Source of the DNA: Litorivivens sp.
GTDB lineage: Bacteria; Pseudomonadota; Gammaproteobacteria; Pseudomonadales; Spongiibacteraceae
Assembly (NCBI GenBank): GCA_041619575.1
Contig: JBFKDP010000001.1
Coordinates: forward strand, 1-59,364
DNA: 59,364 bases
Direction of reading: 5' to 3'
The stretch's first letter is position 1, and every line of letters begins with the position of its first letter. Positions 213-58,733 of this stretch are shown here, one piece after another. Position numbers and translations under genes: made by a program. Below the pieces are notes generated by a model. It made no database searches. It saw nothing but the letters and a program-made list of their open reading frames with translations, and had not been told where the DNA came from.

Positions 213-1133
213 CTATGACGCGTTCGCCAATTCTCCCTTTTCTATCTGGCGCTTTATCCAGCCGCTGGCATTGCCGCCGTCGCAGTTGCCGGTCAGTTCC
301 GCTGCGAGATCAGCCGCCGCCGCCAGCCTGCCCAGATCAATACCGGTATCAAAACCCATCTGGTTGAGCATCAGCACCACATCTTCGGTGGCAACGTTGC
401 CAGAGGCGCCGGGCGCGAAGGGGCAACCGCCCAGACCGCCGATGGATGCGTCAAACTTGCGGATACCGCACTCCACGGCAGCGTACACATCAGCAACGCC
501 CATACCACGGGTATCGTGAAAGTGGCAGGACAGCTTGTCTGCACCGTAGGCGGCCACCAGTTTGCTCATCAGCGATTTTACCTGTCCCGGCGAGGCCGCG
601 CCGATGGTGTCCGCCAGGATGACTTCGCTCGCACCGTACTCTAGCAGTTTGCCGGTGATCTCAATGACGGTCTGCTCGTCAGTCACGCCCTCAAAGGGGC
701 ACTCCCAGGCCGTAGCCACATAAGCCACTACATTCATAGCATCGGTTTTCGCCTGAGCCAGCACGTCCTCGCAAACCACCAGCGCCTGCTCGGTCGTCAT
801 CCGGACATTTTTTTCGTTCATGGTGTTGCTGGCAGCAATCACCAGGCCCATGGTGGTTATGCCGGCTGTCTTCGCCAACTCATAGCCCTTGCGGTTGGGA
901 ATCAACGCCGAAAAGCCGTAATCCCCTCTTGGAAGTCCCGCTGCGACAATATCTGTCCCGGCCATTGCCGGAACGGCTTTGGGAGAAACAAAAGCGCCCA
1001 CTTCAATATGCTGAACACCGGCATCCAGCAGCTTGCTTATAAGGCTTAAACGCTGCTCCGGCGTCAGAATCTTCGCCTGATTCTGCAAACCATCTCTCGG
1101 GCCTACATCGTTAATAACAATCTTTTCTTTCAT
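213..1133 (-). CDS. HMG-CoA lyase-like (DRE-TIM) acyl-CoA lyase, copy 1
   Basis: DVGPRDGLQN, HFHDTRG, GGCPFAPGASGNVATED motifs. Confidence 0.9.
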   Translation of the reverse strand: MKEKIVINDVGPRDGLQNQAKILTPEQRLSLISKLLDAGVQHIEVGAFVSPKAVPAMAGTDIVAAGLPRGDYGFSALIPNRKGYELAKTAGITTMGLVIAASNTMNEKNVRMTTEQALVVCEDVLAQAKTDAMNVVAYVATAWECPFEGVTDEQTVIEITGKLLEYGASEVILADTIGAASPGQVKSLMSKLVAAYGADKLSCHFHDTRGMGVADVYAAVECGIRKFDASIGGLGGCPFAPGASGNVATEDVVLMLNQMGFDTGIDLGRLAAAADLAAELTGNCDGGNASGWIKRQIEKGELANAS

Positions 1134-1136
1134 AAC

Positions 1137-2336
1137 CTAGCCTATAACCCCGTTCGCTTTCAGTTCGGCAGTGGTGGATTCATCGTAGCCAAGAATCTCA
1201 CGCATCAGCTCGTCGGTGTTTTCACCAAGCAAGGGCGCCGGAGAAAAGCTCTCTTCATTGGTGCGAGACAGCTTGATCGGGCACCCAGGCCCCTTGGTAG
1301 TTTTGCCTGAGGGGTGAGGAAGGTCGACAACCATATTGCGGTACTGGACCTGCTCGTCGGCCAGCGCGCGACTGAAGGTGTTGACCGGTGCGGCAGGTAT
1401 ACGCTTGTCGTTAAGCTTGGCCAGCCAGTTGTCGGTGGTGTCCTGCTTGAAAATTTCCGCCAGCGTAGAGTCAATGTATTCCTTGTCCGCCAACCTGCCC
1501 GGCTGGCCATCATACTCGGGCTTGTCGAAGCCGGGGCAGTTCACCACCTGCTTCAGGTTCTGCCAGAAGTTATCGGTAATCACGCAGATCACCAGATGGC
1601 CGTCAGCGGTAGGATAGCTGTTGTAGGGAACATGCACGAAATGACTGTTACCAATGGGGTGAGGATCCTGACCTGACAGGTAGTACATGGTCGCCATGTA
1701 ATTGAGCAGGGAGATCTGCACGTCGAGCATGGAGATATCGATATGCTGACCGACGCCGGAGCGATCGCGTTCAACCAGCGCCGCCAGCACGCCCATAATG
1801 CCAAACATGCCACCGCCGAGGTCACCAATGGGGATGCCGGCGCGCATCGGGTGTTCGGAATCCGACCCGGTAATGGACATACCGCCACCAAAAGCCTGAG
1901 CCACTTGATCAAAGGCCGGCCGCTTGGCACCGGGGCCTTTTTCGCCAAAGCCGGTTATGGAGCAGGTGATGATTTTCGGGTTGATCTTTGCCAGATGGTC
2001 GTAATCGATCTTGAGCTTGGTCGGCACTCCCGCCGCAAAGTTGTTGATCACTACATCTGACTTGGCTACCAGCTCATAAAACAGCTCAAGCCCGCGCTCG
2101 GTCTTCAAATCCATGGAAATGGTGCGCTTGTTGCGGTTCAGGGTAATAAAGTAAGCCCCCATGCCGTCTATCGAGTTATTCGGGTCAGTCGACAGAAGCT
2201 TGCGGGTACCCTCCCCGGTAAGCGGCTCTACCTTGATCATGTCGGCGCCGAGGTCAGCCAGCGTCATGGTACAGAAGGGGCCGGACAGCATATGTGTCAG
2301 GTCAATAATGCGGATGCCCGCCAACGGTTTGTTCAT
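1137..2336 (-). CDS. CaiB/BaiF family III CoA-transferase, copy 1
   Basis: PLAGIRIIDL..GP..LADLGAD, NRNKR, AFDQVAQ, APLLGE. Confidence 0.92.
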   Translation of the reverse strand: MNKPLAGIRIIDLTHMLSGPFCTMTLADLGADMIKVEPLTGEGTRKLLSTDPNNSIDGMGAYFITLNRNKRTISMDLKTERGLELFYELVAKSDVVINNFAAGVPTKLKIDYDHLAKINPKIITCSITGFGEKGPGAKRPAFDQVAQAFGGGMSITGSDSEHPMRAGIPIGDLGGGMFGIMGVLAALVERDRSGVGQHIDISMLDVQISLLNYMATMYYLSGQDPHPIGNSHFVHVPYNSYPTADGHLVICVITDNFWQNLKQVVNCPGFDKPEYDGQPGRLADKEYIDSTLAEIFKQDTTDNWLAKLNDKRIPAAPVNTFSRALADEQVQYRNMVVDLPHPSGKTTKGPGCPIKLSRTNEESFSPAPLLGENTDELMREILGYDESTTAELKANGVIG

Positions 2337-2402
2337 TGTATATCGCCCTTTCCTTGCATTCGGAGTTACAGCAGCCCTATTCCCGCGGGAATAACGCCAT
2401 AA

Positions 2403-2430
2403 AGATATAATGTTATTACTTTATAGCTTA
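2403..2430. promoter_or_regulatory. Putative operator motif (AGATATAATGTTAT...TTATAGCTTA)
   Basis: 2403-2416 is the exact reverse complement of 40810-40823; lies in a divergent promoter region. Confidence 0.6.
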
Positions 2431-2480
2431 TTATGCTACCATTAGCTTCAAGCATGCAAGATGACTGCGAAGATAAGCGC

Positions 2481-3908
2481 ATGGGAAAAACACTGATAGA
2501 AAAGATTCTAAGCGGACATACCGCCGTCGAACTGGACGCGCGGCGACGCCTGATTTATATCGACCGTATTTTTCTGCACGAGCGAACGGGCAGCATTGCC
2601 CTGAAAAGCCTGCATGAAAGCGGCCGTACCGTGGCGCGCCCGACACAGGTTTTCTGCACTATGGATCACATCGTCGACACCTTTCCCGGTCGCGGCGATG
2701 AGACCCTGATGCCCTCCGGCACCCAGTTCATTCGCGCCACCCGCGAGGCGGCCCGCGAAGCGGGTATTACCCTGTTTGACGTACGCGACCAGAATCAGGG
2801 TATCGCTCACGTGGTAGCTGCCGAGCAGGGTATTGCCCTGCCCGGCCTCACCATGGTCTGCCCCGACAGTCACACCTGCACATTGGGCGGCCTCGGCGCG
2901 CTGGCCTGGGGTATTGGCTCAACCGAAGCTGAACACGCCCTGGCCACACGAACGCTGGAACTGCGCATTGCAAAAACCATGCGCGTCACCTTTGACGGCG
3001 AGCTGGGGCCTGGGGTCACTGCAAAAGATATGATCCTGCACCTGATCTCTCGCTACGGCGCCAACGGCGGTGCAGGCTATGTCGTAGAGTTTGCCGGCAG
3101 CGCTATTCGCGCCCTGCCCGTCGAGCAGCGGATGACACTGTGCAATATGGCGGTAGAATTCTCGGCAGTCACCGGACTGGTGGCCCCCGATGACAAAACC
3201 ATCGACTATGTGCGCGGCCGTCCTTACGCCCCCACCGGCGAACAATGGCAACAGGCCGTTAGCCACTGGCAAACACTGCACAGTGATCCGGATGCTGAAT
3301 TTGATCGAGAGCTTCATATCAATGCAGCAGACATTGCTCCCTCGGTAAGCTGGGGCATCAACCCGGAGCAAACCATCGGCATTGATGACGTAATCCCCGA
3401 GCCAGCGGGCGATGCCGAGCAAAAAAACTACATGCGCAAAGCACTGGCTTACATGAAGCTAACACCAGGTCAGGCACTCGCGGGCACCCCCATTGATGCA
3501 GTGTTTATCGGCTCGTGTACCAACAGTCGCCTGAGCGATCTGCGCGCAGTGGCTGAATTCCTGAAGGACAAAAGAGTCGCACCTGGCGTTGCGGCCGTTT
3601 GTGTGCCGGGCTCAACCCAAGTGAAAAAAGCCGCAGAAGCGGAAGGCATTCATCTGATATTGCAGGCCGCCGGTTTCGAGTGGCGAGAGTCTGGCTGCTC
3701 CATGTGTTTTTATGCCGGAGGTGAAACCTTTGGTGCCGGCAAGCGCGTTTTGTCCACCACCAATCGCAATTTTGAAAACCGCCAGGGACCGGGGGTAAAA
3801 ACCCATATCGCCAGCCCACTAACCGTTGCCGCTTCGGCAGTGAATGGCGTTATCAGCGATCCAAGAATGACCGCCATCCTGCCCTCTCTGAAGGAGTACG
3901 TGCGATGA
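2481..3908 (+). CDS. leuC: 3-isopropylmalate dehydratase-like large subunit (probable alkylmaleate hydratase)
   Basis: MGKTLIEKI start, DSHT, GSCTN, GCSMC [4Fe-4S] ligands, STTNRNFENRQG. Confidence 0.9.
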   Translation: MGKTLIEKILSGHTAVELDARRRLIYIDRIFLHERTGSIALKSLHESGRTVARPTQVFCTMDHIVDTFPGRGDETLMPSGTQFIRATREAAREAGITLFDVRDQNQGIAHVVAAEQGIALPGLTMVCPDSHTCTLGGLGALAWGIGSTEAEHALATRTLELRIAKTMRVTFDGELGPGVTAKDMILHLISRYGANGGAGYVVEFAGSAIRALPVEQRMTLCNMAVEFSAVTGLVAPDDKTIDYVRGRPYAPTGEQWQQAVSHWQTLHSDPDAEFDRELHINAADIAPSVSWGINPEQTIGIDDVIPEPAGDAEQKNYMRKALAYMKLTPGQALAGTPIDAVFIGSCTNSRLSDLRAVAEFLKDKRVAPGVAAVCVPGSTQVKKAAEAEGIHLILQAAGFEWRESGCSMCFYAGGETFGAGKRVLSTTNRNFENRQGPGVKTHIASPLTVAASAVNGVISDPRMTAILPSLKEYVR

Positions 3909-4531
3909 GCCTCCAGCCATTTACGGTACACACCGGCGTCGCCGCGCCCTTCCTGCAGGCCAATATCGATACTGACGCCATTATTCCGTCTCGGGAAATG
4001 AAACTGGTTTCCAAACAGGGGCTGGGCGAAGGCCTGTTCGCAGCCTGGCGCTACAAGCTACCCGGCAGCCGCGAACCCAACCCCGACTTTATTCTGAATC
4101 AAGACGCCTACCGCAACACCAGCATTCTGCTGGGGGGCTCCAACTTCGGTTGCGGTTCTTCCCGTGAACACGCCGTCTGGGCGCTGTCTGAATACGGCAT
4201 CCGCGCCATCATTGCGCCGGGCTTTGGCTCAATTTTCTACAACAATTGTATTGGCAATGGGGTCTTGCCGGTCGTGCTACCTGAAGCTGCCATCCAGGCA
4301 TTGGCGAGCGCCTGTGAAACAGACCCGCAATACCAGCAGATCACCGTTGATCTGGAAAACCTTTGCGTAACATCACCCGACGGCTCGCAGTTTGCGTTTC
4401 AGGTTGAAGCTAACGCCAGAAAAATGCTGCTGAACGGATTGGATACTATCGGAGCCACCGAACTGCACGCCGCAAAGATTGACGCCTTTGAAAGCGCCGA
4501 CCGAAAACAGCGGAGCTGGGCCTACCTCTGA
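3905..4531 (+). CDS. leuD: 3-isopropylmalate dehydratase-like small subunit
   Basis: NIDTDAIIP, NFGCGSSREHA; ATGA overlap with leuC. Confidence 0.92.
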   Translation: MSLQPFTVHTGVAAPFLQANIDTDAIIPSREMKLVSKQGLGEGLFAAWRYKLPGSREPNPDFILNQDAYRNTSILLGGSNFGCGSSREHAVWALSEYGIRAIIAPGFGSIFYNNCIGNGVLPVVLPEAAIQALASACETDPQYQQITVDLENLCVTSPDGSQFAFQVEANARKMLLNGLDTIGATELHAAKIDAFESADRKQRSWAYL

Positions 4532-4691
4532 GTTTGACGCCAACCGACGACCTGATCTGACCCTACAATAAAACCGCACGGGCAGATCGCACTCGCGGGA
4601 GGCGGTGCTCACGATACGACGGAAGCTATCGCCTGCTCTTTCTGGCGCGGTTAATCTTATTTATAAAATGGCTATCATCCGGCAAGGCGCG

Positions 4692-5882
4692 TTAGCGCGC
4701 CTGCACGACATTTTCCGCAAACAAGGCATTGATTTCGTCGTCACTGAGACCCGCCAGCTTCAAAGCCTGTGCTGAGTGCTCTCCCTCTTTGGGCAGATCC
4801 TGACGAACTCCGAAGCGACGCCCGGCCATATTCACTGGCAATCCCGGAAGCTTGGTTTTCTCACCATTGGGCAAAGTCAGATCCAGCAGACCACCGGACT
4901 CGTTCAGGTGTATATCGTCAAATAGATCAGAGGGTTTGTTGATTGGCGCAAAGGGCAAGCCGGTTTTATCCAGCTTGGCCATTAAATCGGTCTTACTCAT
5001 AGACGCAAAGCATTCGCGAATTGCCGGCAGAATACGGTCGCGCTGTTTGACTCGCTCGGTATTGGCATCCAGTGAACGGTCTTGCGCAAATTCGGTCAGC
5101 TCAAAGGCTTCGCAAAACAGACGCCACTGGGTATCGCTGACCACGCCGACAAAAACCTGCTCACCATCCGCACTGTCGAAAATGTCGTAGACTGCCCAAG
5201 CCGAGGTACGCACCGACATGGGCTGAGGCTCATTGCCGCTGACTGCCTGTTGAGCCATATGCTGCCCAACCATAAAGGCCGTACTTTCAAACAGAGAGCT
5301 TTTCACCTCCTGTCCTTTGCCTGTGCGGTGACGCTCTTCCAGAGCCGCCATCACAGCAATCACACCAAACATGCCACCGGCTATATCAACCACAGAGGAA
5401 CCCGCGCGCATCGGCTTTCCGGGCAAGCCCGTCATATAGGCCAGTCCACCCATCATCTGGGTTACTTCATCCAGTGCGGTGCGGTGCTGGTAGGGGCCGT
5501 CCAGGAAACCTTTTAGCGAGCAGTAAATGAGTCGCGGATTTCTTTTAGACATCGCCTCGTAGCCAAAGCCGAGCTTTTCCATGGCACCGGGGCGAAAGTT
5601 CTCAATCAGCACGTCCGCGCTTTCAATAAGCTTTTCTGCCACCGCATGGCCTTTATCGTTTTTAAGGTCGATACACAGACTCTGCTTGTTACGGTTATAC
5701 ATGGGAAAGTAGCCGGCACCGGACCCCATCAGACGGCGGGTATTGTCGCCCTTCAGCGGCTCAACCTTGATTACCTCGGCTCCGAGATCAGCCAGTATCA
5801 GACCAACGGTCGGCCCCATCACCATATGGGTAAATTCAACAACCTTGATACCGGATAACGGCAGATTAGCTTGTTCAGTCAC
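4692..5882 (-). CDS. CaiB/BaiF family III CoA-transferase, copy 2
   Basis: PLSGIKVVE..GP..LADLGAEVIKVE, NRNKQS, ENFRPG. Confidence 0.92.
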   Translation of the reverse strand: MTEQANLPLSGIKVVEFTHMVMGPTVGLILADLGAEVIKVEPLKGDNTRRLMGSGAGYFPMYNRNKQSLCIDLKNDKGHAVAEKLIESADVLIENFRPGAMEKLGFGYEAMSKRNPRLIYCSLKGFLDGPYQHRTALDEVTQMMGGLAYMTGLPGKPMRAGSSVVDIAGGMFGVIAVMAALEERHRTGKGQEVKSSLFESTAFMVGQHMAQQAVSGNEPQPMSVRTSAWAVYDIFDSADGEQVFVGVVSDTQWRLFCEAFELTEFAQDRSLDANTERVKQRDRILPAIRECFASMSKTDLMAKLDKTGLPFAPINKPSDLFDDIHLNESGGLLDLTLPNGEKTKLPGLPVNMAGRRFGVRQDLPKEGEHSAQALKLAGLSDDEINALFAENVVQAR

Positions 5883-5953
5883 GCGATTCCCCTGTCTACA
5901 TCTCAGCGCCGGCGGCTGGCAATTACCCGGCTCAACGGCTACAATTGAATATA

Positions 5954-5976
5954 TGTTATATCTTTATATCATTTGA
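5954..5976. promoter_or_regulatory. Putative operator motif TGTTATATCTTTATATCATTTGA
   Basis: 18 nt identical to 54399-54416 and 14 nt identical to 48645-48658; divergent promoter region. Confidence 0.65.
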
Positions 5977-6000
5977 TTCAACAGGCGTGTTTCCACCACC

Positions 6001-6933
6001 ATGACTAACATCGATATTGAAATCAGCGAAGTTGGCCCCCGCGACGGTTTGCAAAGCATCAAAACCATTATGTCCACCGAGGACAAAAAGGCCTGGATTG
6101 CCGCAGAGGCCGCCGCTGGCGTACCGGAAATTGAAGTGGGCTCCTTTGTCCCCCCGAGCGTCATTCCACAGTTAGCCGACACCGCTGAGATTGTTGCCTA
6201 TGCCCGCACCATTCCCGGCCTGGCAGTAGCCGCGCTGGTACCCAACCTGCGCGGCGCTGAAAATGCGATTGCCGCCGGTGCTCACAAGATTTCCATTCCG
6301 CTGTCGGTCAGCGAAACTCACAGCCTAAAGAACGTAAAGCGCAGCCACGCGCAAATGCTCGACGAGATCGACCGCATCGTAAAACGCATTCGCGAGCTGC
6401 CCGAAGCCGAGCGGCCAAAATTTGAAGTAGGACTGTCAACGGCCTTCGGCTGCACTATCGAAGGCCCCGTTTCGGAAGACCTCGTAGTACAACTGGCCGT
6501 TAAAGCCGTTGCCCTGGGCGTCGACGAAGTGGGTCTTTCCGACACCACCGGCTACGGCAACCCGGCACAGTTAAAGCGTCTGGCAAAACGCATCTGGGAA
6601 AATTGCGGCCGTGAAAAACTTAACGGTGTACACCTGCACAATACCCGCGGACAGGGTCTCGCCAATGCATTGGCCGCTGTGGATATCGGCCTGACCACCA
6701 TCGACAGCTCGCTGGGTGGCATTGGCGGCTGCCCCTTTGCGCCCGGCGCCAGCGGCAATATTGTGACCGAGGATCTGGTCTTCATGCTTGAGGCCATGGG
6801 TCTTAAAACCGGCATTGATATTGAGAAGTTGCTGGCGGTAAGAGAACTGGTGCAGAAGGCCCTGCCGGGAGAGGAGCTATACGGCTTTACGCCGGAGGCA
6901 GGACTGCCCAAGGGCTTTGTAGCGGCAAGCTAG
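6001..6933 (+). CDS. HMG-CoA lyase-like (DRE-TIM) acyl-CoA lyase, copy 2
   Basis: EVGPRDGLQS, HLHNTRG, GGCPFAPGASGNIVTED. Confidence 0.9.
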   Translation: MTNIDIEISEVGPRDGLQSIKTIMSTEDKKAWIAAEAAAGVPEIEVGSFVPPSVIPQLADTAEIVAYARTIPGLAVAALVPNLRGAENAIAAGAHKISIPLSVSETHSLKNVKRSHAQMLDEIDRIVKRIRELPEAERPKFEVGLSTAFGCTIEGPVSEDLVVQLAVKAVALGVDEVGLSDTTGYGNPAQLKRLAKRIWENCGREKLNGVHLHNTRGQGLANALAAVDIGLTTIDSSLGGIGGCPFAPGASGNIVTEDLVFMLEAMGLKTGIDIEKLLAVRELVQKALPGEELYGFTPEAGLPKGFVAAS

Positions 6934-6949
6934 AAACATTGCCCACCAT

Positions 6950-6974
6950 GAGCGCTTTAACGACTAAAGCGCTC
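6950..6974. terminator. Hairpin between convergent genes
   Basis: GAGCGCTTTA/TAAAGCGCTC 10-bp stem; no strong U tract. Confidence 0.45.
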
Positions 6975-6987
6975 GCCAACAACAGCC

Positions 6988-7560
6988 CTATTCTTCCATC
7001 AAGGCCTTGTAGAGGCTCTGTTTCGGCTCAGCCATAACCCGATGCACCAGCGGCGCAAACAAATCCAGTGACAGTTCTGGCTTGCTGTTATCAAACGCCG
7101 GATTATCGTATTTCTCGATAAAGCGCGCCGTTCGTTCGTAGTGCTCTGAATCCTTGAAGTTATCGCGCATGTTTCTATCCATGCCGAAATGATGAAAAAA
7201 GTTATAGCCCTGAAAAATACCGTGATGCTTCACCATCCAGTGATTGGCCTCTGAAACAAAAGGCTCGATTATCGCCGCGCCAACATCGGCATGGTTAAAG
7301 GGGCCTAGGGTATCCCCGATATCGTGCAGCAGAGCGCACACCACATACTCATCATCTTCACCCGCCTCGGCCGCCCGCTCAGCGGTTTACAGGCAGTGCT
7401 GCAAACGATCTACCGGAAAGCCGCCAAAGTCACCACCCAGCAAACTCAAATGCTCCAGTATGCGATCAGGCAAGCCCGCCTGAAACTGGCGCTGCTCACC
7501 GAGAATCACCTGCCAGTCTTCGGCAGTACTTTCAGTCATGGCTTTGAACTGGGTTTTCAT
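6988..7560 (-). pseudogene. HD-domain metalloprotein (PhnZ/TmpB-like) interrupted by in-frame TAA at codon 58
   Basis: ATG 7560 with GGAAGG RBS; MKTQFKAMTES...DRLQHCL*TAERAAEAGEDDEYVVCALLHDIGD; TAA at 7387-7389 is in frame with the 118-aa ORF. Confidence 0.8.
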
Positions 7561-7802
7561 AAGTAACCTTCCTCGCTGGGTTCAAGAGGTTCGCCAGACA
7601 GCCGTCAGTACGCTTTGCTAGCGAGCAAAAGCTCACCGGGTAAGCAGCAGCTGGAATGACAGAGTTTCTTGTTGTTTTTTTTGTTTTGGCTTTCGAAGAC
7701 TAGCGGCTATTGAGGTGACTATACAGAAATTGATCGCCCCAGGCAGGGGGCGATCGGGAAGGGCCTGGGCAAACCAGTGGTAATGTGCAACTGGCAGCTA
7801 AC

Positions 7803-9676: not shown

Positions 9677-9682
9677 TCCTTG

Positions 9683-10351: not shown

Positions 10352-10361
10352 AGTTACCTCC

Positions 10362-46829: not shown

Positions 46830-46858
46830 TCAACTTTCCTTATTGTGCTGTGTTCAAA

Positions 46859-47734: not shown

Positions 47735-47849
47735 ACGCTACCTCTTATTATTGATCCAGCGGGTGACGGCTCTGGCCGCCATCAAAACCTGATCATAGAA
47801 GTTTGCGCAAAGCCGGGAGATTACAACTCGGTCAGTCTTGCAGGCCGGA

Positions 47850-48557: not shown

Positions 48558-48644
48558 TTCACACCCTGCTGCTTAAGCTTGAGTCATTGGAATACAGACT
48601 AATGCGCCGTGTACCGAAGAACACGCTTGCCACATTAATTCTAT

Positions 48645-48665
48645 TGTTATATCTTTATTACATTA
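48645..48665. promoter_or_regulatory. Putative operator TGTTATATCTTTATTACATTA
   Basis: 14 nt identical to 5954-5967. Confidence 0.6.
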
Positions 48666-48714
48666 GCATAAACCCGCTGCCTGACCAAGAGACAGCCAAC
48701 ACAACGGATCTGCC

Positions 48715-49473: not shown

Positions 49474-49506
49474 ACCTCTTAGGGCGCCAGTTCAGGCTGG
49501 AGTTCT

Positions 49507-49774
49507 AGGGCCTGTTCATACTAATTTGATAGCTGTCGCTGGAGGTCATTTTTCCGACCAGCGAGGCGGAAGGAGAGAATAAGAGTGGACCTCTGTGAGC
49601 GACTGACAACGAAGCTGGGCGGGAAAATGGCCCCAGCCCTTCGGGTTGCGACTAAAAAGGTGCCACTCGGCGTTGGGCTTCCCTACTTTGGAACCACCAA
49701 ACCACGCTCAGCCCGCCTTGATTGGCGCCTTCTTAGTCGCAACGCCAGCTATCAAATTAGTATGAACAGGCCCT
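49507..49774. mobile_element. MITE-like non-autonomous element, 268 bp
   Basis: Perfect 29-bp terminal inverted repeats AGGGCCTGTTCATACTAATTTGATAGCTG; no transposase. Confidence 0.8.
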
Positions 49775-49828
49775 GGGTTAGCTCCTCCCCCAACTGAACT
49801 GGCGCCCGCCCTATTTCCGGAGCAGAAA

Positions 49829-51010: not shown

Positions 51011-52044
51011 CGGCGCAAGAGCCTCGCAAAGCCCTTTGTCACCGACTGCAAATCATCGCTCTGAAGATAGGCTTCAGCCGCGCCGTCAGCGCGCAAATAG
51101 GTATTCAGAAATGCCACACTTGCGCTGTTTACGAAAGCCAGTGCGTCGTGCTGTGGCTCTGCATCGCGCTCCGGCCGGCAAATCAGATTGCCAAGATAGT
51201 GGTCCGCTCCTTCCACAACCAGTGCGAACTGCTCACCTTCCGGCGCCGTCTCATGCGACATCAAATGCATTTTCCAGTCCGGCCAGAACTGGGCATTACT
51301 ATCCCAGGTCCCTGTGGTTACCAGAACGGGGCCGCGCATTTGCAGCCAGCTCTTATCGTGAATGACATCAAACATCGGGCCAGGCGGCGAAATAGCAATG
51401 ACGCCGACGACGCGGGGATCCACAAGCACTGCAGCCGGACTGCGGTCTGACGCGTTAATATCCCAGGCCTGAGCGCCAGCGAATTGCTGGGCGGTAAAAG
51501 CGCCAAAGGAATGACCGGCAATCACCAGCTGTTGTTTTCGAAACCGAACTGGCGCACCAACGGCCTGCCCAACTTGACGCTCTATTTCCGGGAGCCTATC
51601 CATAACGTAGTGAACATCATCGACACGGGCGGATATCAGGCCCAGCTGTCCGTAACGCAGACTGTTGAAAATGCCCCGGGCCATGCTGCGCCCATCGAGG
51701 TGCGTTGGCGCGATTACGGCATAACCGTAACTGGCCCAGTGGCGCAGCAGGTTGTCATACTTGTTGCGATCGGACCAGTTGCCATGCGAGAAAATCACGA
51801 CGGGCACATCGCCGTCAGCGCTTGCCGGATACCAAACTCTTAACACTAATTCCCGGTTATCCAGCTCAGGCGCATGTAATACCAGATCATCAATCACTTG
51901 CGGTGAGTAGGAGCCCACCTCATAGCCTGGCAATGTTGCTAATTGATGCTCCGCTGCCATCAAGGGTTGCGCTGCCGGCAAGGGTGGCGCGTCGCCACTG
52001 CACCCGAATAGAAAGACTACGACGATCCAAAATATTCTGGTCAT
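51007..52044 (-). CDS. Lipoprotein alpha/beta hydrolase (chlorophyllase/PAF-AH-like)
   Basis: Lipobox LFGC; PVVIFSHG, GHSFGA, D and H (GADH). Confidence 0.75.
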   Translation of the reverse strand: MTRIFWIVVVFLFGCSGDAPPLPAAQPLMAAEHQLATLPGYEVGSYSPQVIDDLVLHAPELDNRELVLRVWYPASADGDVPVVIFSHGNWSDRNKYDNLLRHWASYGYAVIAPTHLDGRSMARGIFNSLRYGQLGLISARVDDVHYVMDRLPEIERQVGQAVGAPVRFRKQQLVIAGHSFGAFTAQQFAGAQAWDINASDRSPAAVLVDPRVVGVIAISPPGPMFDVIHDKSWLQMRGPVLVTTGTWDSNAQFWPDWKMHLMSHETAPEGEQFALVVEGADHYLGNLICRPERDAEPQHDALAFVNSASVAFLNTYLRADGAAEAYLQSDDLQSVTKGFARLLRR

Positions 52045-53021
52045 CGCGGGTACTCGGTGAACAGAAACTCGCGGGTAGCCATCGCACTAACTTCCGGTTT
52101 TTCGACCGGCAGTAAATGACCCGCCTCAGGGATTAGCCGACTCCTTACCGTCAAGGATGCCGACAGCGCTTTTTCGAAGCGCGTAAGGTGTGATGTCGGC
52201 AGTTGCGGATTTTGTGCACCCCACAGAATCAATGTGGGCGCTGTAATGGACGCCAATACCGGAGCAGGTTCACCCACATCGAAAGTGCGCATCCGCTCCA
52301 GCTCCGCCTGGCGATTGCCGGAGTGGCGAAACATGGCGTGAAACTCGTCAACCAACGCGTCACTGACAATGGACGCATCAAATACCATCCACTCGATAAA
52401 GGCGCGATACGCCGCTTGCGGCACAAAATAAAATACCCGGTAGAACCAGTCTGGTATCCCCTCGGCGTTGCGCTTGCTGCTCTGTTCCCGTTTTAAGCCG
52501 CCAGAATTTATCAGAACCAGTTTCTCGACCTTCTCAGAGTGCTTTGCGGCGTAATGAAAGGCAATATTGCCCCCAAGCGACGACCCGACCAGCGACACGC
52601 GGTTAATACCCAGCGCATCAATCAGCCCGTCCAGCATTCGCAGGTCTCGCTCCATACTGTAATCGTTACTCGTATCCGGCCCTGTCAGCCCGTGACTGGT
52701 CAAATCAAAGCGAACGATCGAGAAGGCGTCTTCCAGATAGGGCAACCAGCCATCCCACATGCGGGAATTAAAGTAGTGAGAATGAATCAGTAACAACGCC
52801 GGCGCTTCGCCCAAAGGCCGGCCATCGCGTCGGTAAGCGACGCGGTTACCCTCTATCTGGGCAAAGTGCAGATTTTCGCCGCCGTAGCGAGAAATTAATG
52901 TATCAGTGGGTATATCGCGGTAGGCAGCGGCCGCGTACAGCCCATACACAACCACCAGAGCAACCAGCGCAAACACGGTACGCCCCAGCCATCGGACTGC
53001 GCTGCGCAGAATTGCCATCAA
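52041..53021 (-). CDS. Membrane-anchored alpha/beta hydrolase
   Basis: N-terminal TM segment; GSSLGG; GHL. Confidence 0.85.
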   Translation of the reverse strand: MMAILRSAVRWLGRTVFALVALVVVYGLYAAAAYRDIPTDTLISRYGGENLHFAQIEGNRVAYRRDGRPLGEAPALLLIHSHYFNSRMWDGWLPYLEDAFSIVRFDLTSHGLTGPDTSNDYSMERDLRMLDGLIDALGINRVSLVGSSLGGNIAFHYAAKHSEKVEKLVLINSGGLKREQSSKRNAEGIPDWFYRVFYFVPQAAYRAFIEWMVFDASIVSDALVDEFHAMFRHSGNRQAELERMRTFDVGEPAPVLASITAPTLILWGAQNPQLPTSHLTRFEKALSASLTVRSRLIPEAGHLLPVEKPEVSAMATREFLFTEYPR

Positions 53022-53663
53022 CTAAGCTCCCATACTGGCCGCCAGCCCGGCAGCCATTTCCTCCAGAACAGGAGCGACATGTTGCTGCGCACCTGACGCT
53101 TGCCACCAGGCTTTCAGCTGCGGCGTCTCGGCAAAAATAGCGGTCTCGCCGAAAATAGCGGGCACTTTTTCAACATAAAAAAGAACCGGAGCCAAAAGGC
53201 AGTCGAGAAAACCGAATCGATCCAGCTCAGGCGCGTTGCTCTGCTGCAGGAATTTTTCAAGTATCGCCAGCTTGTCTTTCAGCGCGCTTATATTGCGGGC
53301 GATAGCGTCCTTGTCGCCCGTTTTCAGGCGCAATTCCATAAAGAGCGGAAACAGGGCCTGTGCCAGCTCGAGGTCCGTAAAACGCGACACGCCGCGCAAC
53401 CAGGCACGCTGCTCAGCCTTCTCAGGTAGCAGAGCCGCTTCTGGAAAACGCTCTTCCAGATACTCCATGATCGAAACCGATTCCACCAGATAGTGACCGT
53501 CGACGTGCAGAGTCGGCACTTTGCCTGTCGGTGTCAGGGCTTTGAAGGTGTCGGAGCCGAGCCCTCCTTCCGGGGCTTCCACGCTAACCGGCAAGGCGCC
53601 GGCGCGTATCTGAATACGTATACGCGATGCATAGGGCGAGTGCGGAACACTGTAAAGTTTCAT
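53022..53663 (-). CDS. Glutathione S-transferase family protein
   Basis: SPYASR, PTGKVPTL, ESVSIMEYLEE. Confidence 0.9.
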   Translation of the reverse strand: MKLYSVPHSPYASRIRIQIRAGALPVSVEAPEGGLGSDTFKALTPTGKVPTLHVDGHYLVESVSIMEYLEERFPEAALLPEKAEQRAWLRGVSRFTDLELAQALFPLFMELRLKTGDKDAIARNISALKDKLAILEKFLQQSNAPELDRFGFLDCLLAPVLFYVEKVPAIFGETAIFAETPQLKAWWQASGAQQHVAPVLEEMAAGLAASMGA

Positions 53664-53669
53664 AAGCAA

Positions 53670-54335
53670 CTATCCGATGAGATGAATGCCAAAAGCAGCG
53701 TTGATAAAAAGACCGAGCCAAATCGCCCAGACCCAGGGTCGGCAACGGGCTACTGACGTTGCCATTGTGTCGTTAACAGCATCACTGGGGCCTTCGCTCA
53801 TCAATTTTACAAAAGCAGGCACAAAGGGCTTCAGATTGATACGGATGGCGATGCCACAGCAGACCAGCGCGGCGAATACGATGATTTTCCAGGCAACCCA
53901 ATCGGCATAGATTGGAGCGTATTCGGCCAGTCCCAGCGCGGCAAACACCAGCAGAGCGACCACCACCGCGATACGAAATCCCAGATCAAACTGGCTAAGG
54001 CGCGCGGTAAAGGCCTTGCCCTCATTAAAATAAAGCACCAGGACATTCCCCAACCAGATTGCCGCCAACAGCCACACCAGAACCAGCGCCCACAGCGGAA
54101 TAGCCACCAGCCCCATAATCACCGCCATGTGCATACCTAGCGGCAGAATAAGCGGCATGCTCATTTTCGGCCCCTGATCACAGGCCAGCATGATTTTCAG
54201 GGCGACTGCGCGAGCTTCAACGCCAATGTCCCGATTTACTACATAGCGACTGGCGACAAAGGTGCCCAAATCGCCGCCCAACCAGTAGACAAAGGCGACA
54301 ATATGGGCAAACTGGAGCCAGAGAAATTCATTCAT
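53670..54335 (-). CDS. Hypothetical membrane protein
   Basis: About 6 TM segments; His in TM1 (AHIVAFVYWLGGD). Confidence 0.7.
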   Translation of the reverse strand: MNEFLWLQFAHIVAFVYWLGGDLGTFVASRYVVNRDIGVEARAVALKIMLACDQGPKMSMPLILPLGMHMAVIMGLVAIPLWALVLVWLLAAIWLGNVLVLYFNEGKAFTARLSQFDLGFRIAVVVALLVFAALGLAEYAPIYADWVAWKIIVFAALVCCGIAIRINLKPFVPAFVKLMSEGPSDAVNDTMATSVARCRPWVWAIWLGLFINAAFGIHLIG

Positions 54336-54391
54336 GCGCAATCCAACCCTGTTAACTGAGCGTGCAAGCGACACTCGACTTCAAATGTACT

Positions 54392-54416
54392 ATTATATTA
54401 TCTTTATATCATTTGA
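54392..54416. promoter_or_regulatory. Putative operator ..TATCTTTATATCATTTGA
   Basis: 18 nt identical to 5959-5976. Confidence 0.65.
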
Positions 54417-54462: not shown

Positions 54463-55647
54463 ATGGGAACCTATACACCGATGTCGATTCTCAAACGCTT
54501 CGCGCCACTTCTGATACTGGCCACTGGTCTGGCGCTGGCTATCGCCATCGCGAACGGCAAGCCCAAGCCGCAGCCCGCAACAGTATCCCCCGTACCAACG
54601 CCGCAGGTCGATATTCTCACCCTGCAACCGCAAACCACCGTGCTGAGTGTGCGTGGTGAAGGTACGGTCAAGCCCAAACGGGACATCACCCTGGTTGCCG
54701 AAGTCGGTGGGCGCATTCTGAAGGTTAGCGATGACTTTGCCGACGGCGCAACGGTAAGCGCTGGCGATGTATTGCTGGAGATAGACCCTGCCGACTACCA
54801 AACCGAAGTCATTCGCGCCCAAGCGCGGGTAGCGGAGGCCGAACAGGTACTGGCACTGGAAAAAGGACGGGCTCGCCAGTCCAAGCGAGAATGGCGCGAC
54901 CTCGGCAGTGACGAAGCCAACGACTTGTTCCTGCGAAAGCCCCAGATCAAAGCAGCAAAAGCCGCACTGGCCGCAGCCAGCGCTGAGCTGCGCAAGGCGG
55001 AATTGAATCTGGAACGCACACGGATTCGCGCCCCCTTTGACGGGCGTCTTTACAATCTGCAAGCCAATCTCGGCCAGTTTGTTTCTTCAGGCACGCCCAT
55101 CACCAACCTTTTTGACAGCAGTGTTGCCGAAGTCATTCTGCCACTGAGCGAACGCCAGTTGCGCTTGCTGGATTTACCTCTCGCCGCCAGCGCGCCAGTT
55201 GATGTGACCGTACACGCCAGGCTGGGAAGTGGCACGTTTGAGCGCACTGCTCGCCTGGTGCGCAATGCAGCGCGCCTGGACAGCGATACACGCCAACTTG
55301 CCGCCATCGTCGAGATTAGCCAGCCATTTACCGGCCCACAGCCTCTTTACGCCGGCCAGTTTGTCGATATCCATCTGCCGAGCAAGCCACTGGATAATGT
55401 GGTCGTTCTGCACCAGTCCCTGGTTCACCCCCGCGATACCCTGTGGCTGCTCGACGACAGCAATACACTACAAATTCAGCCCGTCACCGTACTTCAGGCC
55501 TTCGCTGACAAGGTCGCTGTGCAAATGCCCGACAGCCAGCCGATAAACCTGGTGACCTCCTATCTGGCAAACCCGGTTGAAGGGATGGCTTTGACACCGC
55601 ACTTTGAAAATGAGTCGTCAGTGCAAACGGCGAAACAATTGCCATGA
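54463..55647 (+). CDS. RND efflux periplasmic adaptor (MFP)
   Basis: AEVGGRI, LLEIDPADY, coiled coil, IRAPFDG. Confidence 0.92.
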   Translation: MGTYTPMSILKRFAPLLILATGLALAIAIANGKPKPQPATVSPVPTPQVDILTLQPQTTVLSVRGEGTVKPKRDITLVAEVGGRILKVSDDFADGATVSAGDVLLEIDPADYQTEVIRAQARVAEAEQVLALEKGRARQSKREWRDLGSDEANDLFLRKPQIKAAKAALAAASAELRKAELNLERTRIRAPFDGRLYNLQANLGQFVSSGTPITNLFDSSVAEVILPLSERQLRLLDLPLAASAPVDVTVHARLGSGTFERTARLVRNAARLDSDTRQLAAIVEISQPFTGPQPLYAGQFVDIHLPSKPLDNVVVLHQSLVHPRDTLWLLDDSNTLQIQPVTVLQAFADKVAVQMPDSQPINLVTSYLANPVEGMALTPHFENESSVQTAKQLP

Positions 55648-58600
55648 GCACAATTACCCGCTGGTTTATTCACAATCCCATTGCGGCGCATCTGGTTATG
55701 GTGCTGGTATTTATCGGCGGCATCACCACGCTTCCCCAGCTGGACAAAGAGTTCTTCCCCCAGCGCAAGCTGAATCAGATCAGCATTACCGTAAATTATC
55801 CGGGCGCCAACCCGGGTGAAGTTGAAAAGCAGGTAGTGTTGCGCATTGAAGAAGCCATTGGCGATGTGGATGGTATTGAGGAAATGCGGTCGACCGCGCT
55901 GGAAGGTCAGGCCAGTGTGATTGTCGACATCGCCAGCGGGTCGGACTCACAGAGACTGCTGAACGACATTAAAACCCGGGTTGAAGGCATCACCACATTT
56001 CCTGCGGAAACGGAGCGCCCGCTTATCAATGAGCGACTCTGGCGCAGCCGCATGATCAGCATGACATTGGCTGGAGATCTCCCCGAAGGCACGCTAAAGG
56101 AGCTTGGTGAAACCATCCGGGAAGAGTTAAGCGCCCTCCCTCATGTGTCGCTCGTTGAACTGCGCACACCGCGGAACGACGAACTTGCAATCGAGGTTTC
56201 CGAGAGCGCCCTGCGCCAATACGGACTGGATTTTGATGATGTCGCGACCGCAGTGCGCCAATCGTCCATCAACATGCCGGCCGGTAAAGTTCGCACCGAT
56301 GACGGAGATATTCAGATACAGGTTAGAGGGCAGGCCAATCGCGCTGAAGATTTTTCAGACATCCCTCTACGCAGCAAGCGCGATGGCGCCGAGCTGACCG
56401 TCGCTGACGTTGCCACAGTGATTGATGGTTTTGAAGAAATTGATGTGATTGGACTATTTGACCGCAAGCCGTCCTATTCCATCGATGTCTATGTGACGAC
56501 CAAACCCAATGTACTGAAAACCAGTGCGGCTGTTCGCCAATACTTAGAGGACATTACACCTACTTTGCCGGAAGGTGTCGAACTGCGGATCTGGCGCGAC
56601 ATGTCGGTTCCATTTGCCGATCGCATGAACACTTTGCTCAGCAATGGCTTTGGCGGACTGGTACTGGTCTTTATTCTCTTGCTGCTTTTTCTGCGACCCT
56701 TGCTGGCCATCTGGGTCTGCGCCGGCATCGGCGTCGCCTTTCTCGGTGCGATATGGCTGCTGCCGGTACTCGGCACCAGCCTGAATATGGTGTCCCTGTT
56801 TGCCTTTATCCTGATACTGGGGATTGTTGTCGACGACGCCATCATTGTCGGTGAGTCCATTTACAGCGCCCAGGAACAGGGCCGCCCCGGCGCTGAAGGC
56901 GCCTGGCATGGCACACGCGCAGTGATGAAGCCCGTGTGGTTCGCGGTGATATCGACCATGCTGTTTTTTGTACCGTTTTATTTCCTGCCGGAGGAAGCCG
57001 CCGAACCCCCTAATCTGGCAGACGTGGTAATGCTCGCACTTGCTTTTTCGCTGTTTGAATCCACCATGATTCTGCCGGCACACTTGGCGCAAATGAAGCC
57101 GGAAAAGCCCGGCAAGTATGGCTGGCAACGCGCCATCGGCACAGTGCGGACACGCTTCTCGGCAGGGCTTCGCCGCATCGCAGATACGATTTACCAGCCG
57201 CTGCTGGAAGCTTGCATTGCCCGCCGTGGCATCACCGTTGCGAGTTTTATCGCCCTCTTTCTGATCATATTATCCTTCCTCTTCGGCGGTTGGATGAAAG
57301 CCAGTTTCTTCCCGCGCGTACCCGGCGATCATCTGGTCGCCAATGTCTCGCTCGAGGAAGGCATTGCGTTTGCTGAAGTCGAGCGAACCATGGAAACCAT
57401 GATCGCTGCCGCCGAGCAAATCAAGACCGAGCTCAACAAGGACGGTGAGCGACCTTTTGCCGGCAGTATTGAGGCCGCCGCCTACAACAACACGGTGCGC
57501 GTCACGCTGGAACTGCTCAATGTGGAGGAACGCAATCAACCCGTTTATCGATTGCGCGATCAATGGCTGCAATTAATCGGACCACTCCCCAATGCCCGAG
57601 ATTTGGACATCGCCTTTACCATTATCCCGCTGGGCAAGCCCATAGAGCTGCAGGTGGTCGCCAGAGATGTCGCCTTGCTGAGAGAATCTACCGATGCACT
57701 CGCGGCTGAACTTCGGCGTTATCCCGGTGTATTCAATGTTCGCAACAGCCTGGCTAACCCTCAACCGGAAATCGATCTGCAACTGAAACCACACGCGGAA
57801 TCACTCGGCGTACAGCTACGCGATGTTGCCCGGCAGGTAAGGCAGGGTTTTTACGGTGAAGAGGTGCAACGCATCCCTCGCCTTCGCGAAGATGTTCGCG
57901 TCATGGTGCGCTATCCGCGCGAGTCGCGTGAATCCATTCACAGTCTGCGGGATATGAAAATACGCACCGCTGATGGCCGCGAGATTCCTTTTGAGGCGGT
58001 GGCAGATCTCGACTTTGTAGACGGCTACACCACCATCGACCGCATAGATCGCCAGCGCGTCGCCAGCATTTCTGCTGATCTGCAGCCCGGTTTCAGCGCC
58101 GGTGCTGTTCTCGGTGCCCTGATCGACGATCCTCAATGGGAAGAACGCTTTCCCGAGGCAACTGTTCAGAAAGAAGGCGAGCAACAACGACAGTCGGAAT
58201 TCCTCGATCGCACCGCGCAGTTGATGATCCTCTCGCTGCTGTTGATTTACGGATTGATGGCGATCGTATTTCAGTCCTACTGGCAGCCCGTCATTATCAT
58301 GACCGCCATTCCCTTCGGTTTTATGGGCGGCCTGCTTGGCCATCTGCTGCTGGGGCAAGAACTTGCGATGTTTTCTGTGCTGGGCATGGTGGCCTGCGCG
58401 GGGGTTGTCGTGAATGACAACCTTGTCCTCCTTGACCGCATAAACACGCTCACAAAGGAAGGGCACAGTGCGATAGAGGCGGTTGTGCGCGGTGCACGGG
58501 ATCGATTTCGCCCAATTGTATTGACCTCCCTGACCACCTTTATCGGGCTAACCCCTATCATGCTGGAATCCTCGATTCAGGCCCAGTTTCTGAAACCCAT

Positions 58601-58733
58601 GGTGGTTGCGCTGGCCTTTGGCGTGCTCACAGCCTCGTTTATCACTTTGCTGTTTGTGCCCTGTATCTATCTACTGGGAGATGCCTTCATGACACACCTG
58701 CGAGGACTGCGCAGCGCCCCCGGCCGAACCTGA
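55644..58733 (+). CDS. RND efflux permease (AcrB-like)
   Basis: YPGA.P.EVE, LGIVVDDAIIVGE, RFRPIVLTSLTT. Confidence 0.95.
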   Translation: MSTITRWFIHNPIAAHLVMVLVFIGGITTLPQLDKEFFPQRKLNQISITVNYPGANPGEVEKQVVLRIEEAIGDVDGIEEMRSTALEGQASVIVDIASGSDSQRLLNDIKTRVEGITTFPAETERPLINERLWRSRMISMTLAGDLPEGTLKELGETIREELSALPHVSLVELRTPRNDELAIEVSESALRQYGLDFDDVATAVRQSSINMPAGKVRTDDGDIQIQVRGQANRAEDFSDIPLRSKRDGAELTVADVATVIDGFEEIDVIGLFDRKPSYSIDVYVTTKPNVLKTSAAVRQYLEDITPTLPEGVELRIWRDMSVPFADRMNTLLSNGFGGLVLVFILLLLFLRPLLAIWVCAGIGVAFLGAIWLLPVLGTSLNMVSLFAFILILGIVVDDAIIVGESIYSAQEQGRPGAEGAWHGTRAVMKPVWFAVISTMLFFVPFYFLPEEAAEPPNLADVVMLALAFSLFESTMILPAHLAQMKPEKPGKYGWQRAIGTVRTRFSAGLRRIADTIYQPLLEACIARRGITVASFIALFLIILSFLFGGWMKASFFPRVPGDHLVANVSLEEGIAFAEVERTMETMIAAAEQIKTELNKDGERPFAGSIEAAAYNNTVRVTLELLNVEERNQPVYRLRDQWLQLIGPLPNARDLDIAFTIIPLGKPIELQVVARDVALLRESTDALAAELRRYPGVFNVRNSLANPQPEIDLQLKPHAESLGVQLRDVARQVRQGFYGEEVQRIPRLREDVRVMVRYPRESRESIHSLRDMKIRTADGREIPFEAVADLDFVDGYTTIDRIDRQRVASISADLQPGFSAGAVLGALIDDPQWEERFPEATVQKEGEQQRQSEFLDRTAQLMILSLLLIYGLMAIVFQSYWQPVIIMTAIPFGFMGGLLGHLLLGQELAMFSVLGMVACAGVVVNDNLVLLDRINTLTKEGHSAIEAVVRGARDRFRPIVLTSLTTFIGLTPIMLESSIQAQFLKPMVVALAFGVLTASFITLLFVPCIYLLGDAFMTHLRGLRSAPGRT

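What the first reader, a model, noticed from the sequence alone, without database searches (positions are those of the whole stretch)
213..58733. Candidate bacterial chlorophyll/tetrapyrrole catabolism island
Seen: one co-regulated island with 3 RCCR-like proteins, 2 NOL/NYC1-like SDRs, chlorophyllase-like hydrolases, a Rieske oxygenase and a TonB receptor, plus imidase-, maleamate-amidase-, LeuCD-, CoA-transferase- and HMG-lyase-like genes. Established: plants degrade chlorophyll via NYC1/NOL, dephytylation (CLH/PPH), the Rieske enzyme PAO and RCCR, stopping at linear phyllobilins; oxidative tetrapyrrole breakdown yields alkyl maleimides such as methylethylmaleimide and hematinic acid. Inference: a heterotroph imports chlorophyll derivatives or bilins, opens and reduces the macrocycle, and funnels the pyrrole rings to pyruvate, acyl-CoA and ammonia. 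I know of no characterised bacterial pathway for complete chlorophyll mineralisation.
Basis: partly seen in the sequence, partly recalled or inferred. Interest (0 to 1): 0.95.

Follow-up and report, generated by a model that had tools for sequence, protein, structure and literature searches.

The report
Bacterial tetrapyrrole pigment breakdown regulon
This marine bacterium carries a conserved block of about 50 genes, most behind one shared DNA motif and including relatives of two plant chlorophyll-breakdown enzymes, that likely imports chlorophyll-type pigments and likely breaks their rings down to pyruvate, acyl-CoA and ammonia; the substrate is untested.

Summary
Real, and more than chance. 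The contig encodes two RCCR-family proteins, a third more distant one, two SDRs that group with plant NYC1, a Rieske oxygenase, a TonB receptor and an imide-amide-maleate-CoA-lyase set. The genes stay together, reshuffled, across six families in two orders. In the host family the LeuCD paralog occurs in 12 of 14 RCCR-positive and 0 of 25 RCCR-negative genomes. A palindromic operator marks eight intergenic regions. Against a plant-like reading: the Rieske is not PAO, and no SGR or HCAR was found. Best reading: aerobic catabolism of tetrapyrroles to central metabolites (about 0.67 in all; chlorophyll-derived entry 0.45, open bilins 0.22); another N-heterocycle 0.25. A 2026 preprint already reports clustered homologs of the upper enzymes and partial chlorophyll conversion in Shewanella, but no ring opening, lower pathway or regulon. 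This scan noted similar islands before on other DNA (three unchecked notes).

The parts
213..2336 (-). HMG-CoA-lyase-family enzyme 1 (213-1133) and family III CoA-transferase 1 (1137-2336)
   Evidence: Pfam, NCBIfam PRK05692 above cut-off
2481..4531 (+). LeuC/LeuD paralog pair; predicted alkylmaleate hydratase
   Evidence: present in 12 of 14 RCCR-positive and 0 of 25 RCCR-negative family genomes
4692..5882 (-). family III CoA-transferase 2
6001..6933 (+). HMG-CoA-lyase-family enzyme 2
6988..7551 (-). HD-domain gene with an in-frame stop; not found in the related islands examined
   Evidence: identical letters in contigs of four runs
7803..10351 (-). two PuuE-like proteins (7803-8726, 8723-9667) and isochorismatase-family amidase 1 (9683-10351); predicted imidase plus maleamate amidase
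   Evidence: the trio is adjacent in all 8 fetched places that hold it (G000 C1 and C270, G003, G240, G379, L094, L098, L099, L100 less duplicates)
10362..11564 (-). FAD monooxygenase
11690..12475 (-). GntR/UTRA (HutC-like) regulator, operator match directly upstream
12575..18133 (-). isochorismatase-family amidase 2, alpha/beta hydrolase without GxSxG, two aldehyde dehydrogenases, acyl-CoA-dehydrogenase-fold flavoenzyme
18273..19016 (-). RCCR-A: distant bilin-reductase/RCCR-fold protein
19019..20722 (-). tandem nitrilase-fold amidase; Glu-Lys-Cys triad conserved in the first domain
   Evidence: 12 of 14 vs 0 of 25
20776..23421 (-). TonB-dependent receptor
23627..25587 (+). unknown membrane protein and MFS transporter 1
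27025..29422 (-). AMDase/maleate-isomerase-fold protein 1 lacking both cysteines (27025-27801), NYC1/NOL-clade SDR 1 (27886-28686), unknown membrane protein
29526..30677 (-). Rieske non-heme iron oxygenase of an uncharacterised subfamily; not PAO
30949..33736 (+). RCCR-B (30949-31746), serine hydrolase (31772-32749), tandem beta-barrel protein of DUF3598/BFA1 fold (32768-33736)
33807..36562 (.). SnoaL-like and OYE flavoenzyme cassette; accessory, no operator match, absent from the G003 island
37087..40765 (.). DUF4437 cupin, LysR (38060-39064, minus), DUF2141 (39143-39571), unknown protein, VOC-fold protein
40868..46326 (+). atypical SDR, NYC1/NOL-clade SDR 2 (41726-42523), RCCR-C (42544-43365), MFS transporter 2, FG-GAP lipoprotein
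46395..51010 (.). SnoaL-like protein, two ordinary SDRs, AMDase-fold protein 2 (48715-49473), MFS transporter 3
51007..54332 (-). chlorophyllase-family hydrolase (51007-52044) and a second serine hydrolase (52041-53021), both with hydrophobic N-termini; GST; unknown membrane protein
54478..58733 (+). RND efflux adaptor and permease
2396..54410 (.). shared operator, roughly TGWTATA-N4-TATAWCA, at 2396, 2404, 2414, 5957, 12530, 23553, 30753, 30912, 40809, 48648, 54397

Best explanation
The island is one conserved gene set behind a shared operator that likely imports chlorophyll-derived tetrapyrroles and likely degrades them aerobically to pyruvate, acyl-CoA and ammonia. Shown: gene families, linkage, co-inheritance, operator motif. 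Inferred steps: (1) exported esterases would remove phytol or methyl esters, and the TonB receptor and MFS carriers would import the pheophorbide-type product; (2) the Rieske enzyme would oxygenate or open the ring, with the double-barrel protein as carrier; (3) the three RCCR-fold proteins would reduce bridge double bonds and the NOL-clade SDRs a formyl or keto group; (4) flavin oxygenases, aldehyde dehydrogenases, the cysteine-less AMDase-fold proteins (likely decarboxylases) and the nitrilase-fold amidase would release and open single pyrrole lactams or maleimides; (5) the PuuE pair and isochorismatase amidases would give 2-methyl-3-alkylmaleates plus ammonia; (6) LeuCD would hydrate them and two CoA-transferase/lyase pairs would cleave them to pyruvate plus an acyl-CoA, one pair per side-chain type. 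Steps 5-6 are the firmest chemistry, step 4 the weakest; the electron donor is not encoded in the window.
For: Two families whose only characterised members seen here act on chlorophyll catabolites (RCCR, NYC1) co-occur in multiple copies, though RCCR was found in 0 of 400 other phylum genomes. One chlorophyllase-family hydrolase. The barrel protein matches DUF3598/BFA1 (Z 19.4, rmsd 3.8, 247 aligned); single barrels resemble nitrobindins (Z 13) and bilin lyases (Z 11.4, 9.6). Lower-pathway genes track RCCR: LeuC 12 of 14 vs 0 of 25, PuuE-b 10 of 14 vs 1 of 25, amidase 12 of 14 vs 0 of 25, NOL 11 of 14 vs 0 of 25. PuuE relatives are imidases (PMC11424739); LeuC-type maleate hydratase and the (R)-citramalate CoA-transferase/lyase route are known (PMC8307300); maleimides are tetrapyrrole breakdown products (PMC8669743). 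G118 has no reaction centre and no heme oxygenase, yet carries true bilin reductases beside paralogs of island genes, which fits catabolism, not synthesis. The Shewanella preprint gives an experimental hint for a similar upper cluster.
Against: No substrate, expression or activity data. The Rieske lacks the PaO domain and a CxxC motif; no PAO among 55 long hits; its best solved relatives are caffeine and saxitoxin oxygenases. No SGR (the control never rang) and no HCAR-type FrhB domain in 5 of 5 genomes, so the NOL-like enzymes cannot run the plant b-to-a cycle. At the first catalytic acid of plant RCCR (position recalled) RCCR-B has Ala and RCCR-C Val. PuuE-b was missed in 3 of 4 f297 genomes and in G031 although they hold the upper genes; the chlorophyllase-family gene was missed in G1084. 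Barrel folds and the biliverdin-reductase-like satellite gene are not tetrapyrrole-specific. Related genomes are not independent samples. Orthology with the Shewanella cluster could not be tested.
Confidence: 0.45

Rival explanations
1. Same lower pathway, but the entry substrates are already open chains: phycobilins, biliverdin or red bilins excreted by algae. The Rieske enzyme would then attack a bridge or side chain of a linear bilin.
For: No SGR, HCAR or PAO-type enzyme. RCCR and bilin reductases act on linear substrates. G118 and G269 have a satellite TonB receptor - bilin-reductase-fold - biliverdin-reductase/ChuY-like - MFS module. Some green algae excrete RCC (PMC9306834).
Against: NYC1-clade SDRs and a chlorophyllase-family esterase point to intact chlorins; RCCR-B and C are far closer to RCCR than to bilin reductases.
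Confidence: 0.22
2. The island degrades another methyl-substituted nitrogen heterocycle (pyrrole, pyridine or indole alkaloid). RCCR- and NOL-type enzymes would be ancestral enzymes with another substrate that plants later recruited.
For: The imide/maleamate/maleate route is also used for pyridines (recalled). A bacterial origin with promiscuous activity is proposed for SGR (PMC9306834). Rieske nearest solved structures act on purines and saxitoxin. Catalytic acid differs in RCCR-B and C.
Against: It needs three tetrapyrrole-linked families (RCCR, NYC1, chlorophyllase) to meet by chance. All characterised enzymes named for this fold in PMC10151467 (FDBRs, RCCR, coproporphyrinogen oxidase) act on tetrapyrroles. 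The AMDase-fold proteins lack the cysteines of maleate isomerase, unlike pyridine pathways.
Confidence: 0.25
3. The island only detoxifies phototoxic pigments (reduction, glutathione conjugation, efflux), and the maleate genes serve an unrelated substrate.
For: GST, RND pump and a TetA-like MFS are inside the regulon.
Against: An importer-type TonB receptor is in the regulon; the maleate genes share the operator and track RCCR even when they lie elsewhere in the genome.
Confidence: 0.08

Closest known systems
Plant PAO/phyllobilin pathway (NYC1/NOL, CLH/PPH, SGR, HCAR, PAO, RCCR)
   Same: RCCR-family and NYC1-clade enzymes, a chlorophyllase-family esterase and a Rieske oxygenase beside an RCCR gene.
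   Different: Rieske is not PAO; SGR and HCAR not found; three RCCR-fold paralogs; uptake system; about 20 downstream enzymes; plants stop at phyllobilins.
'SH-RCCR type' prokaryotic chlorophyll degradation, Shewanella acanthi (bioRxiv 10.64898/2026.03.19.712979)
   Same: Clustered CLH-, PPH-, Rieske- and RCCR-like genes in a marine gammaproteobacterium; an adjacent pair of serine hydrolases here may match the deleted PPH-CLH genes (untested).
   Different: The main text covers four or five upper enzymes, measures only chlorophyll, pheophytin and pheophorbide, and names no NOL homolog, operator, transporter or lower pathway. Its supplements were not seen.
Maleamate pathway of pyridine catabolism and (R)-citramalate route
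   Same: Isochorismatase-family amidases, LeuCD-type hydratase, family III CoA-transferase and lyase.
   Different: No cysteine-bearing maleate isomerase; hydration plus CoA-lyase instead; duplicated CoA-transferase/lyase pairs; PuuE-type pair upstream.
Pre-PcyA bilin reductase clusters of heterotrophs (PMC10151467)
   Same: Bilin-reductase-fold genes in non-photosynthetic bacteria.
   Different: Those are biosynthetic, typically with heme oxygenase, globin and V4R genes; none of these is in the window, and no heme oxygenase was found in 5 of 5 island genomes.

Membership tests
RCC reductase (PF06405) | profile match above cut-off over the fold | tested here: met
   RCCR-B 45.4 and RCCR-C 56.9 bits vs 24.9; RCCR-A 19.2, below cut-off but linked by profile-profile
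RCC reductase (PF06405) | two catalytic acids of the plant enzyme (Glu154, Asp291; recalled, one search found no source) | tested here: inconclusive
   Second Asp (DP motif) kept in all three window proteins; first position Asp in A, Ala in B, Val in C
RCC reductase (PF06405) | ferredoxin-dependent reduction of RCC | not testable with these tools
   no assay; no ferredoxin gene among the window ORFs scanned
NYC1/NOL chlorophyll b reductase | clade with plant NYC1/NOL | tested here: met
   named long hits after bacterial fusions are NYC1 (E 5e-35 to 6e-28); one clade, SH-aLRT 99, limited outgroup, no NOL row
NYC1/NOL chlorophyll b reductase | partner HCAR in the same genome | tested here: not met
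   PF04432 in 0 of 5 genomes, control rang in 4 of 14
Pheophorbide a oxygenase | Rieske and mononuclear iron motifs | tested here: met
Pheophorbide a oxygenase | PaO domain PF08417 and C-terminal CxxC (motif recalled) | tested here: not met
   no PF08417 at E 5; none over cut-off in 5 genomes; no CxxC
Pheophorbide a oxygenase | tree position with PAO | tested here: inconclusive
   no PAO row was available; separate from CAO
Chlorophyllase (PF07224) | profile match and GxSxG nucleophile | tested here: met
   51007-52044: 42 bits vs 26, GHSFG; 31772-32749 has GHSAG but no Pfam hit
Plant PAO/phyllobilin pathway | Mg-dechelatase SGR | tested here: inconclusive
   0 matches in G000 (86% complete); control rang nowhere
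PuuE-type imidase | Glu-His-Trp triad (PMC11424739) | tested here: inconclusive
   both about 115 bits vs cut-off 424; by eye PuuE-b keeps Glu and His but not Trp, PuuE-a lacks the Glu
Maleate isomerase | two catalytic cysteines (recalled) | tested here: not met
   Ser and Gly at these positions, conserved in 27 and 11 rows
Bilirubin reductase BilR | NCBIfam cut-off | tested here: not met
   OYE scores 395.8 vs 750

The most novel reading that the evidence does not exclude
This is the first complete bacterial route that mineralises chlorophyll's tetrapyrrole core, opening it with a non-PAO Rieske enzyme, and it is the gene pool from which the plant lineage drew RCCR and NYC1/NOL; an unstudied green-algal Rieske family related to the island enzyme may be part of the same chemistry.
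Probability: 0.35. Interest if true: 0.95.

Novelty: categorically new. Interest (0 to 1): 0.82.

Why it matters
About 1.15 billion tonnes of chlorophyll are made each year (figure from the preprint), and ten literature searches here found no described enzymatic route that takes its pyrrole rings to central metabolism. This island supplies candidate genes for every step, one regulator whose effector can be screened directly, cultured carriers (record titles: Litorivivens lipolytica CECT 8654, Zhongshania borealis JCM 17304, Parahaliea maris HSLHS9, Microbulbifer aggregans SaN0-8) and island-free relatives as controls. It would name a sink for pigment carbon and nitrogen, explain turnover of maleimide biomarkers, and bear on where plant RCCR and NYC1 came from. 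If the substrate is something else, it still gives the first bacterial function for these families.

Tried and rejected
Single-sequence fold of RCCR-A failed (pLDDT 38); replaced by profile comparisons. No plasmid match for RCCR-B. The metagenome scan gave 1 locus. Two attempts to reach a Shewanella genome by a decaheme marker failed, so orthology with the preprint's cluster is open. No RNA holder listed. A Rieske-RCCR-B complex prediction was not run. Cluster look-up of 10 Rieske relatives gave only generic names. PMC12290011 passages added nothing. Rejected: Rieske as PAO or CAO ortholog; OYE as BilR; AMDase-fold proteins as maleate isomerases; 38099-39571 as one gene; bilin biosynthesis (no heme oxygenase, no reaction centre). 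The PucC transporter pair of G118 lies beside RCCR-A and Rieske paralogs, but in G364 it lies apart from them and G000 has none, so it is not used as evidence. The shuffle test of the operator (11 vs 0.24) is partly circular because the pattern was read from these sites; the matches in other genomes are the independent test. Searches for print.
Full report
Setting. The window is a whole 59,364-base contig of G000 (86% complete, 462 contigs). The nearest named relatives of RCCR-C are 93-99% identical proteins in records titled Litorivivens and Spongiibacteraceae. Public runs holding half or more of the sampled words are 5 marine metagenomes of 2 studies, one of them a possible source. No photosynthetic reaction centre was found in 5 of 5 island genomes tested.

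Observation. Pfam and NCBIfam scans of 56 and 54 ORFs confirm every gene type named. RCCR-C hits Arabidopsis RCCR structures at 5e-11; the RCCR-B profile hits them at 4e-18 over positions 30-256 and bilin reductases at 1e-4 or worse. RCCR-A is distant (HY2 1e-3, RCCR 0.018) but aligns to the RCCR-B profile at 98.5%. For SDR 1, a search among long proteins gave 73 hits: 41 unnamed or bacterial relatives, mostly SDR-MFS fusions, then 31 rows at 31-35% identity, many named NYC1 or chlorophyll(ide) b reductase, then one tropinone reductase. A quick tree of 72 rows joins both island SDRs, 7 bacterial fusions and 13 NYC1 rows on a long branch (SH-aLRT 99); the careful search did not finish and the outgroup was narrow.

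The Rieske enzyme is not PAO. It has intact Rieske and iron motifs, no CxxC, a VanA-type C-terminus and no PaO domain. Among 55 long hits, the full-length ones were 3 unnamed proteins and 4 uncharacterised green-algal proteins (32-37%), followed by partial matches to chlorophyllide a oxygenase; none was named PAO (a word-seeded search, so absence is weak). In a fast tree of 81 rows it sits in an uncharacterised subfamily apart from CAO.

The unknown 322-residue protein folds with pLDDT 87 as a tandem barrel like DUF3598 and BFA1 (Z 19.4 and 18.9); single barrels match nitrobindins (Z 13) and the bilin lyases CpeS and CpeT (Z 11.4, 9.6). This fits a pigment carrier but does not show one.

Conservation. 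Of 53 window proteins used as queries, 45 lie in the same order within 80 kb of G003; 30, 26, 23, 21 and 18 lie reshuffled within 80 kb of G379, G240, G321, G269 and G121; 19 within 40 kb of G019; 19-20 in four genomes of family f297, outside the host order. G118 and G364 have the set scattered. Prevalence: RCCR in 14 of 39 other host-family genomes, 25 of 151 in family f49, 4 of 221 in f297, 0 of 400 across the phylum; the barrel gene in 9 of 400 across the order.

Co-inheritance. In the 39 host-family genomes, presence in RCCR-positive versus RCCR-negative genomes was: LeuC paralog 12 of 14 vs 0 of 25, nitrilase-fold amidase 12 of 14 vs 0 of 25, NOL-like 11 of 14 vs 0 of 25, PuuE-b 10 of 14 vs 1 of 25, the one being 74% complete. 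Ten of the 14 positives are under 90% complete, and kin are not independent. Against: PuuE-b was missed in G031 (98%) and 3 of 4 f297 genomes; LeuC was missed at the strict cut-off in G240 and G364, although one search shows it in the G240 island.

Co-regulation. A palindrome close to TGWTATA-N4-TATAWCA lies in 7 of 9 listed divergent promoter regions and upstream of the GntR/UTRA gene. A matrix from 8 window sites found 11 sites in the window, 12 in 61 kb of second-copy contigs and 8 weaker ones in the other 3.97 Mb; it found 4-10 sites in each of the islands of G003, G013, G019, G118, G121, G240, G269 and G379, and none in the G321 main island or the four f297 islands, where no GntR ortholog lay in the fetched DNA. 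G321 has sites beside its separate GntR-PuuE block. That the GntR binds the motif is inferred.

Mechanism. The lower half reads as one route. PuuE relatives hydrolyse cyclic imides (PMC11424739, passages). Amidase 1 is nearest to isochorismatase-family amidases (that 4L07 and 3OT4 are maleamate amidases is recalled). LeuC-type maleate hydratase and the (R)-citramalate CoA-transferase and lyase are known (PMC8307300, passages; that this lyase is HMG-lyase family is recalled). This route suits methyl-substituted maleates, which is what opened tetrapyrrole rings give, since each carries a methyl and an ethyl, vinyl or propionate group; two transferase/lyase pairs suit two side-chain types (inference). 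The AMDase-fold proteins, among the best conserved of the set, lack both cysteines and are proposed as decarboxylases. The middle steps, from reduced bilin to single rings, have candidate enzymes but no assigned order.

Independent hints from relatives. G118 holds 7 matches to the RCCR-B profile and 4 Rieske paralogs, a bilin reductase above the Pfam cut-off in an operon with paralogs of island ALDH and MFS genes (also G364), and no heme oxygenase. G118 and G269 share a TonB receptor - bilin-reductase-fold - NAD(P)H reductase - MFS module; that reductase hits biliverdin IX-beta reductase (7e-8) and ChuY (8e-7) but two generic proteins score higher.

Prior art. The bioRxiv preprint (whole main text read; supplements not seen) finds RCCR-type homolog sets in over 400 genomes, notes an 11-kb cluster in S. 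acanthi and shows slower decolouration and no pheophorbide build-up in a PPH-CLH deletion; an acid sterile control also made pheophytin, and ring opening was not measured. PMC2716323 (passages) notes RCCR homologs in Nostoc and Anabaena. PMC10151467 and PMC9306834 were read as passages. None of ten searches listed a paper on this regulon or on a bacterial route from tetrapyrrole to central metabolism; the library lacks most subscription papers. Three earlier notes of this scan describe similar islands in other genomes, two of them actinobacterial; they are unchecked and were not counted as support.

Verdict. The system is real, conserved and co-regulated. It works like an extended, bacterial counterpart of the plant pathway but is not a member of it. 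Tetrapyrrole catabolism is the best inference (about 0.67), split between chlorin entry (0.45) and open bilins (0.22). The class 'categorically new' refers to the full route to central metabolism and holds only if the substrate is confirmed; the upper half is already proposed in the preprint.

Noticed in passing
G000 contigs C31, C48, C166, C230, C270, C370 (and fragments on C59, C78, C5): A second, divergent copy of 39 island genes (51-95% identity) with its own operator sites. Duplicated genes in the bin concentrate on the island; second copy versus co-binned relative is unresolved.
   Followed up: partly
window 6988-7551: HD-domain gene with an in-frame stop, identical in contigs of four runs, so likely a real pseudogene.
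   Followed up: yes
P0196, P0197, P0199, P0200: Uncharacterised green-algal Rieske proteins (Volvox, Coccomyxa, Symbiochloris) with long N-terminal extensions are the closest named long relatives of the island Rieske.
   Followed up: partly
P0122-P0160: NOL-clade SDR fused to an MFS transporter in many bacteria, one named from Pyrinomonadaceae.
   Followed up: partly
L081 4727-18616 (G118): Rieske and RCCR-A paralogs inside a SAM-cycle gene run with two PucC-family transporters and methyltransferases, in a genome without a reaction centre.
   Followed up: partly
L036:382-1137 and 10 other loci: A Crp/Fnr regulator is conserved beside the barrel gene in many related islands but not in the window.
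   Followed up: no
L087:15860-16876 and L087:12696-13409: Two further unknown families (a 338-aa membrane protein, a 237-aa lipoprotein) recur in related islands but not in G000.
   Followed up: no
L060-L061 (G364): Frameshifted copies of RCCR-B and the barrel gene in one island, with intact copies elsewhere in that genome.
   Followed up: no
window 18134-18272, 27802-27885, 29423-29525, 43366-43486: Related GC-rich inverted-repeat elements in several intergenic gaps.
   Followed up: no
L028:6589-9276 and three other loci: Pyruvate dehydrogenase E1 lies within the fetched DNA of four related islands; may be chance neighbourhood.
   Followed up: no
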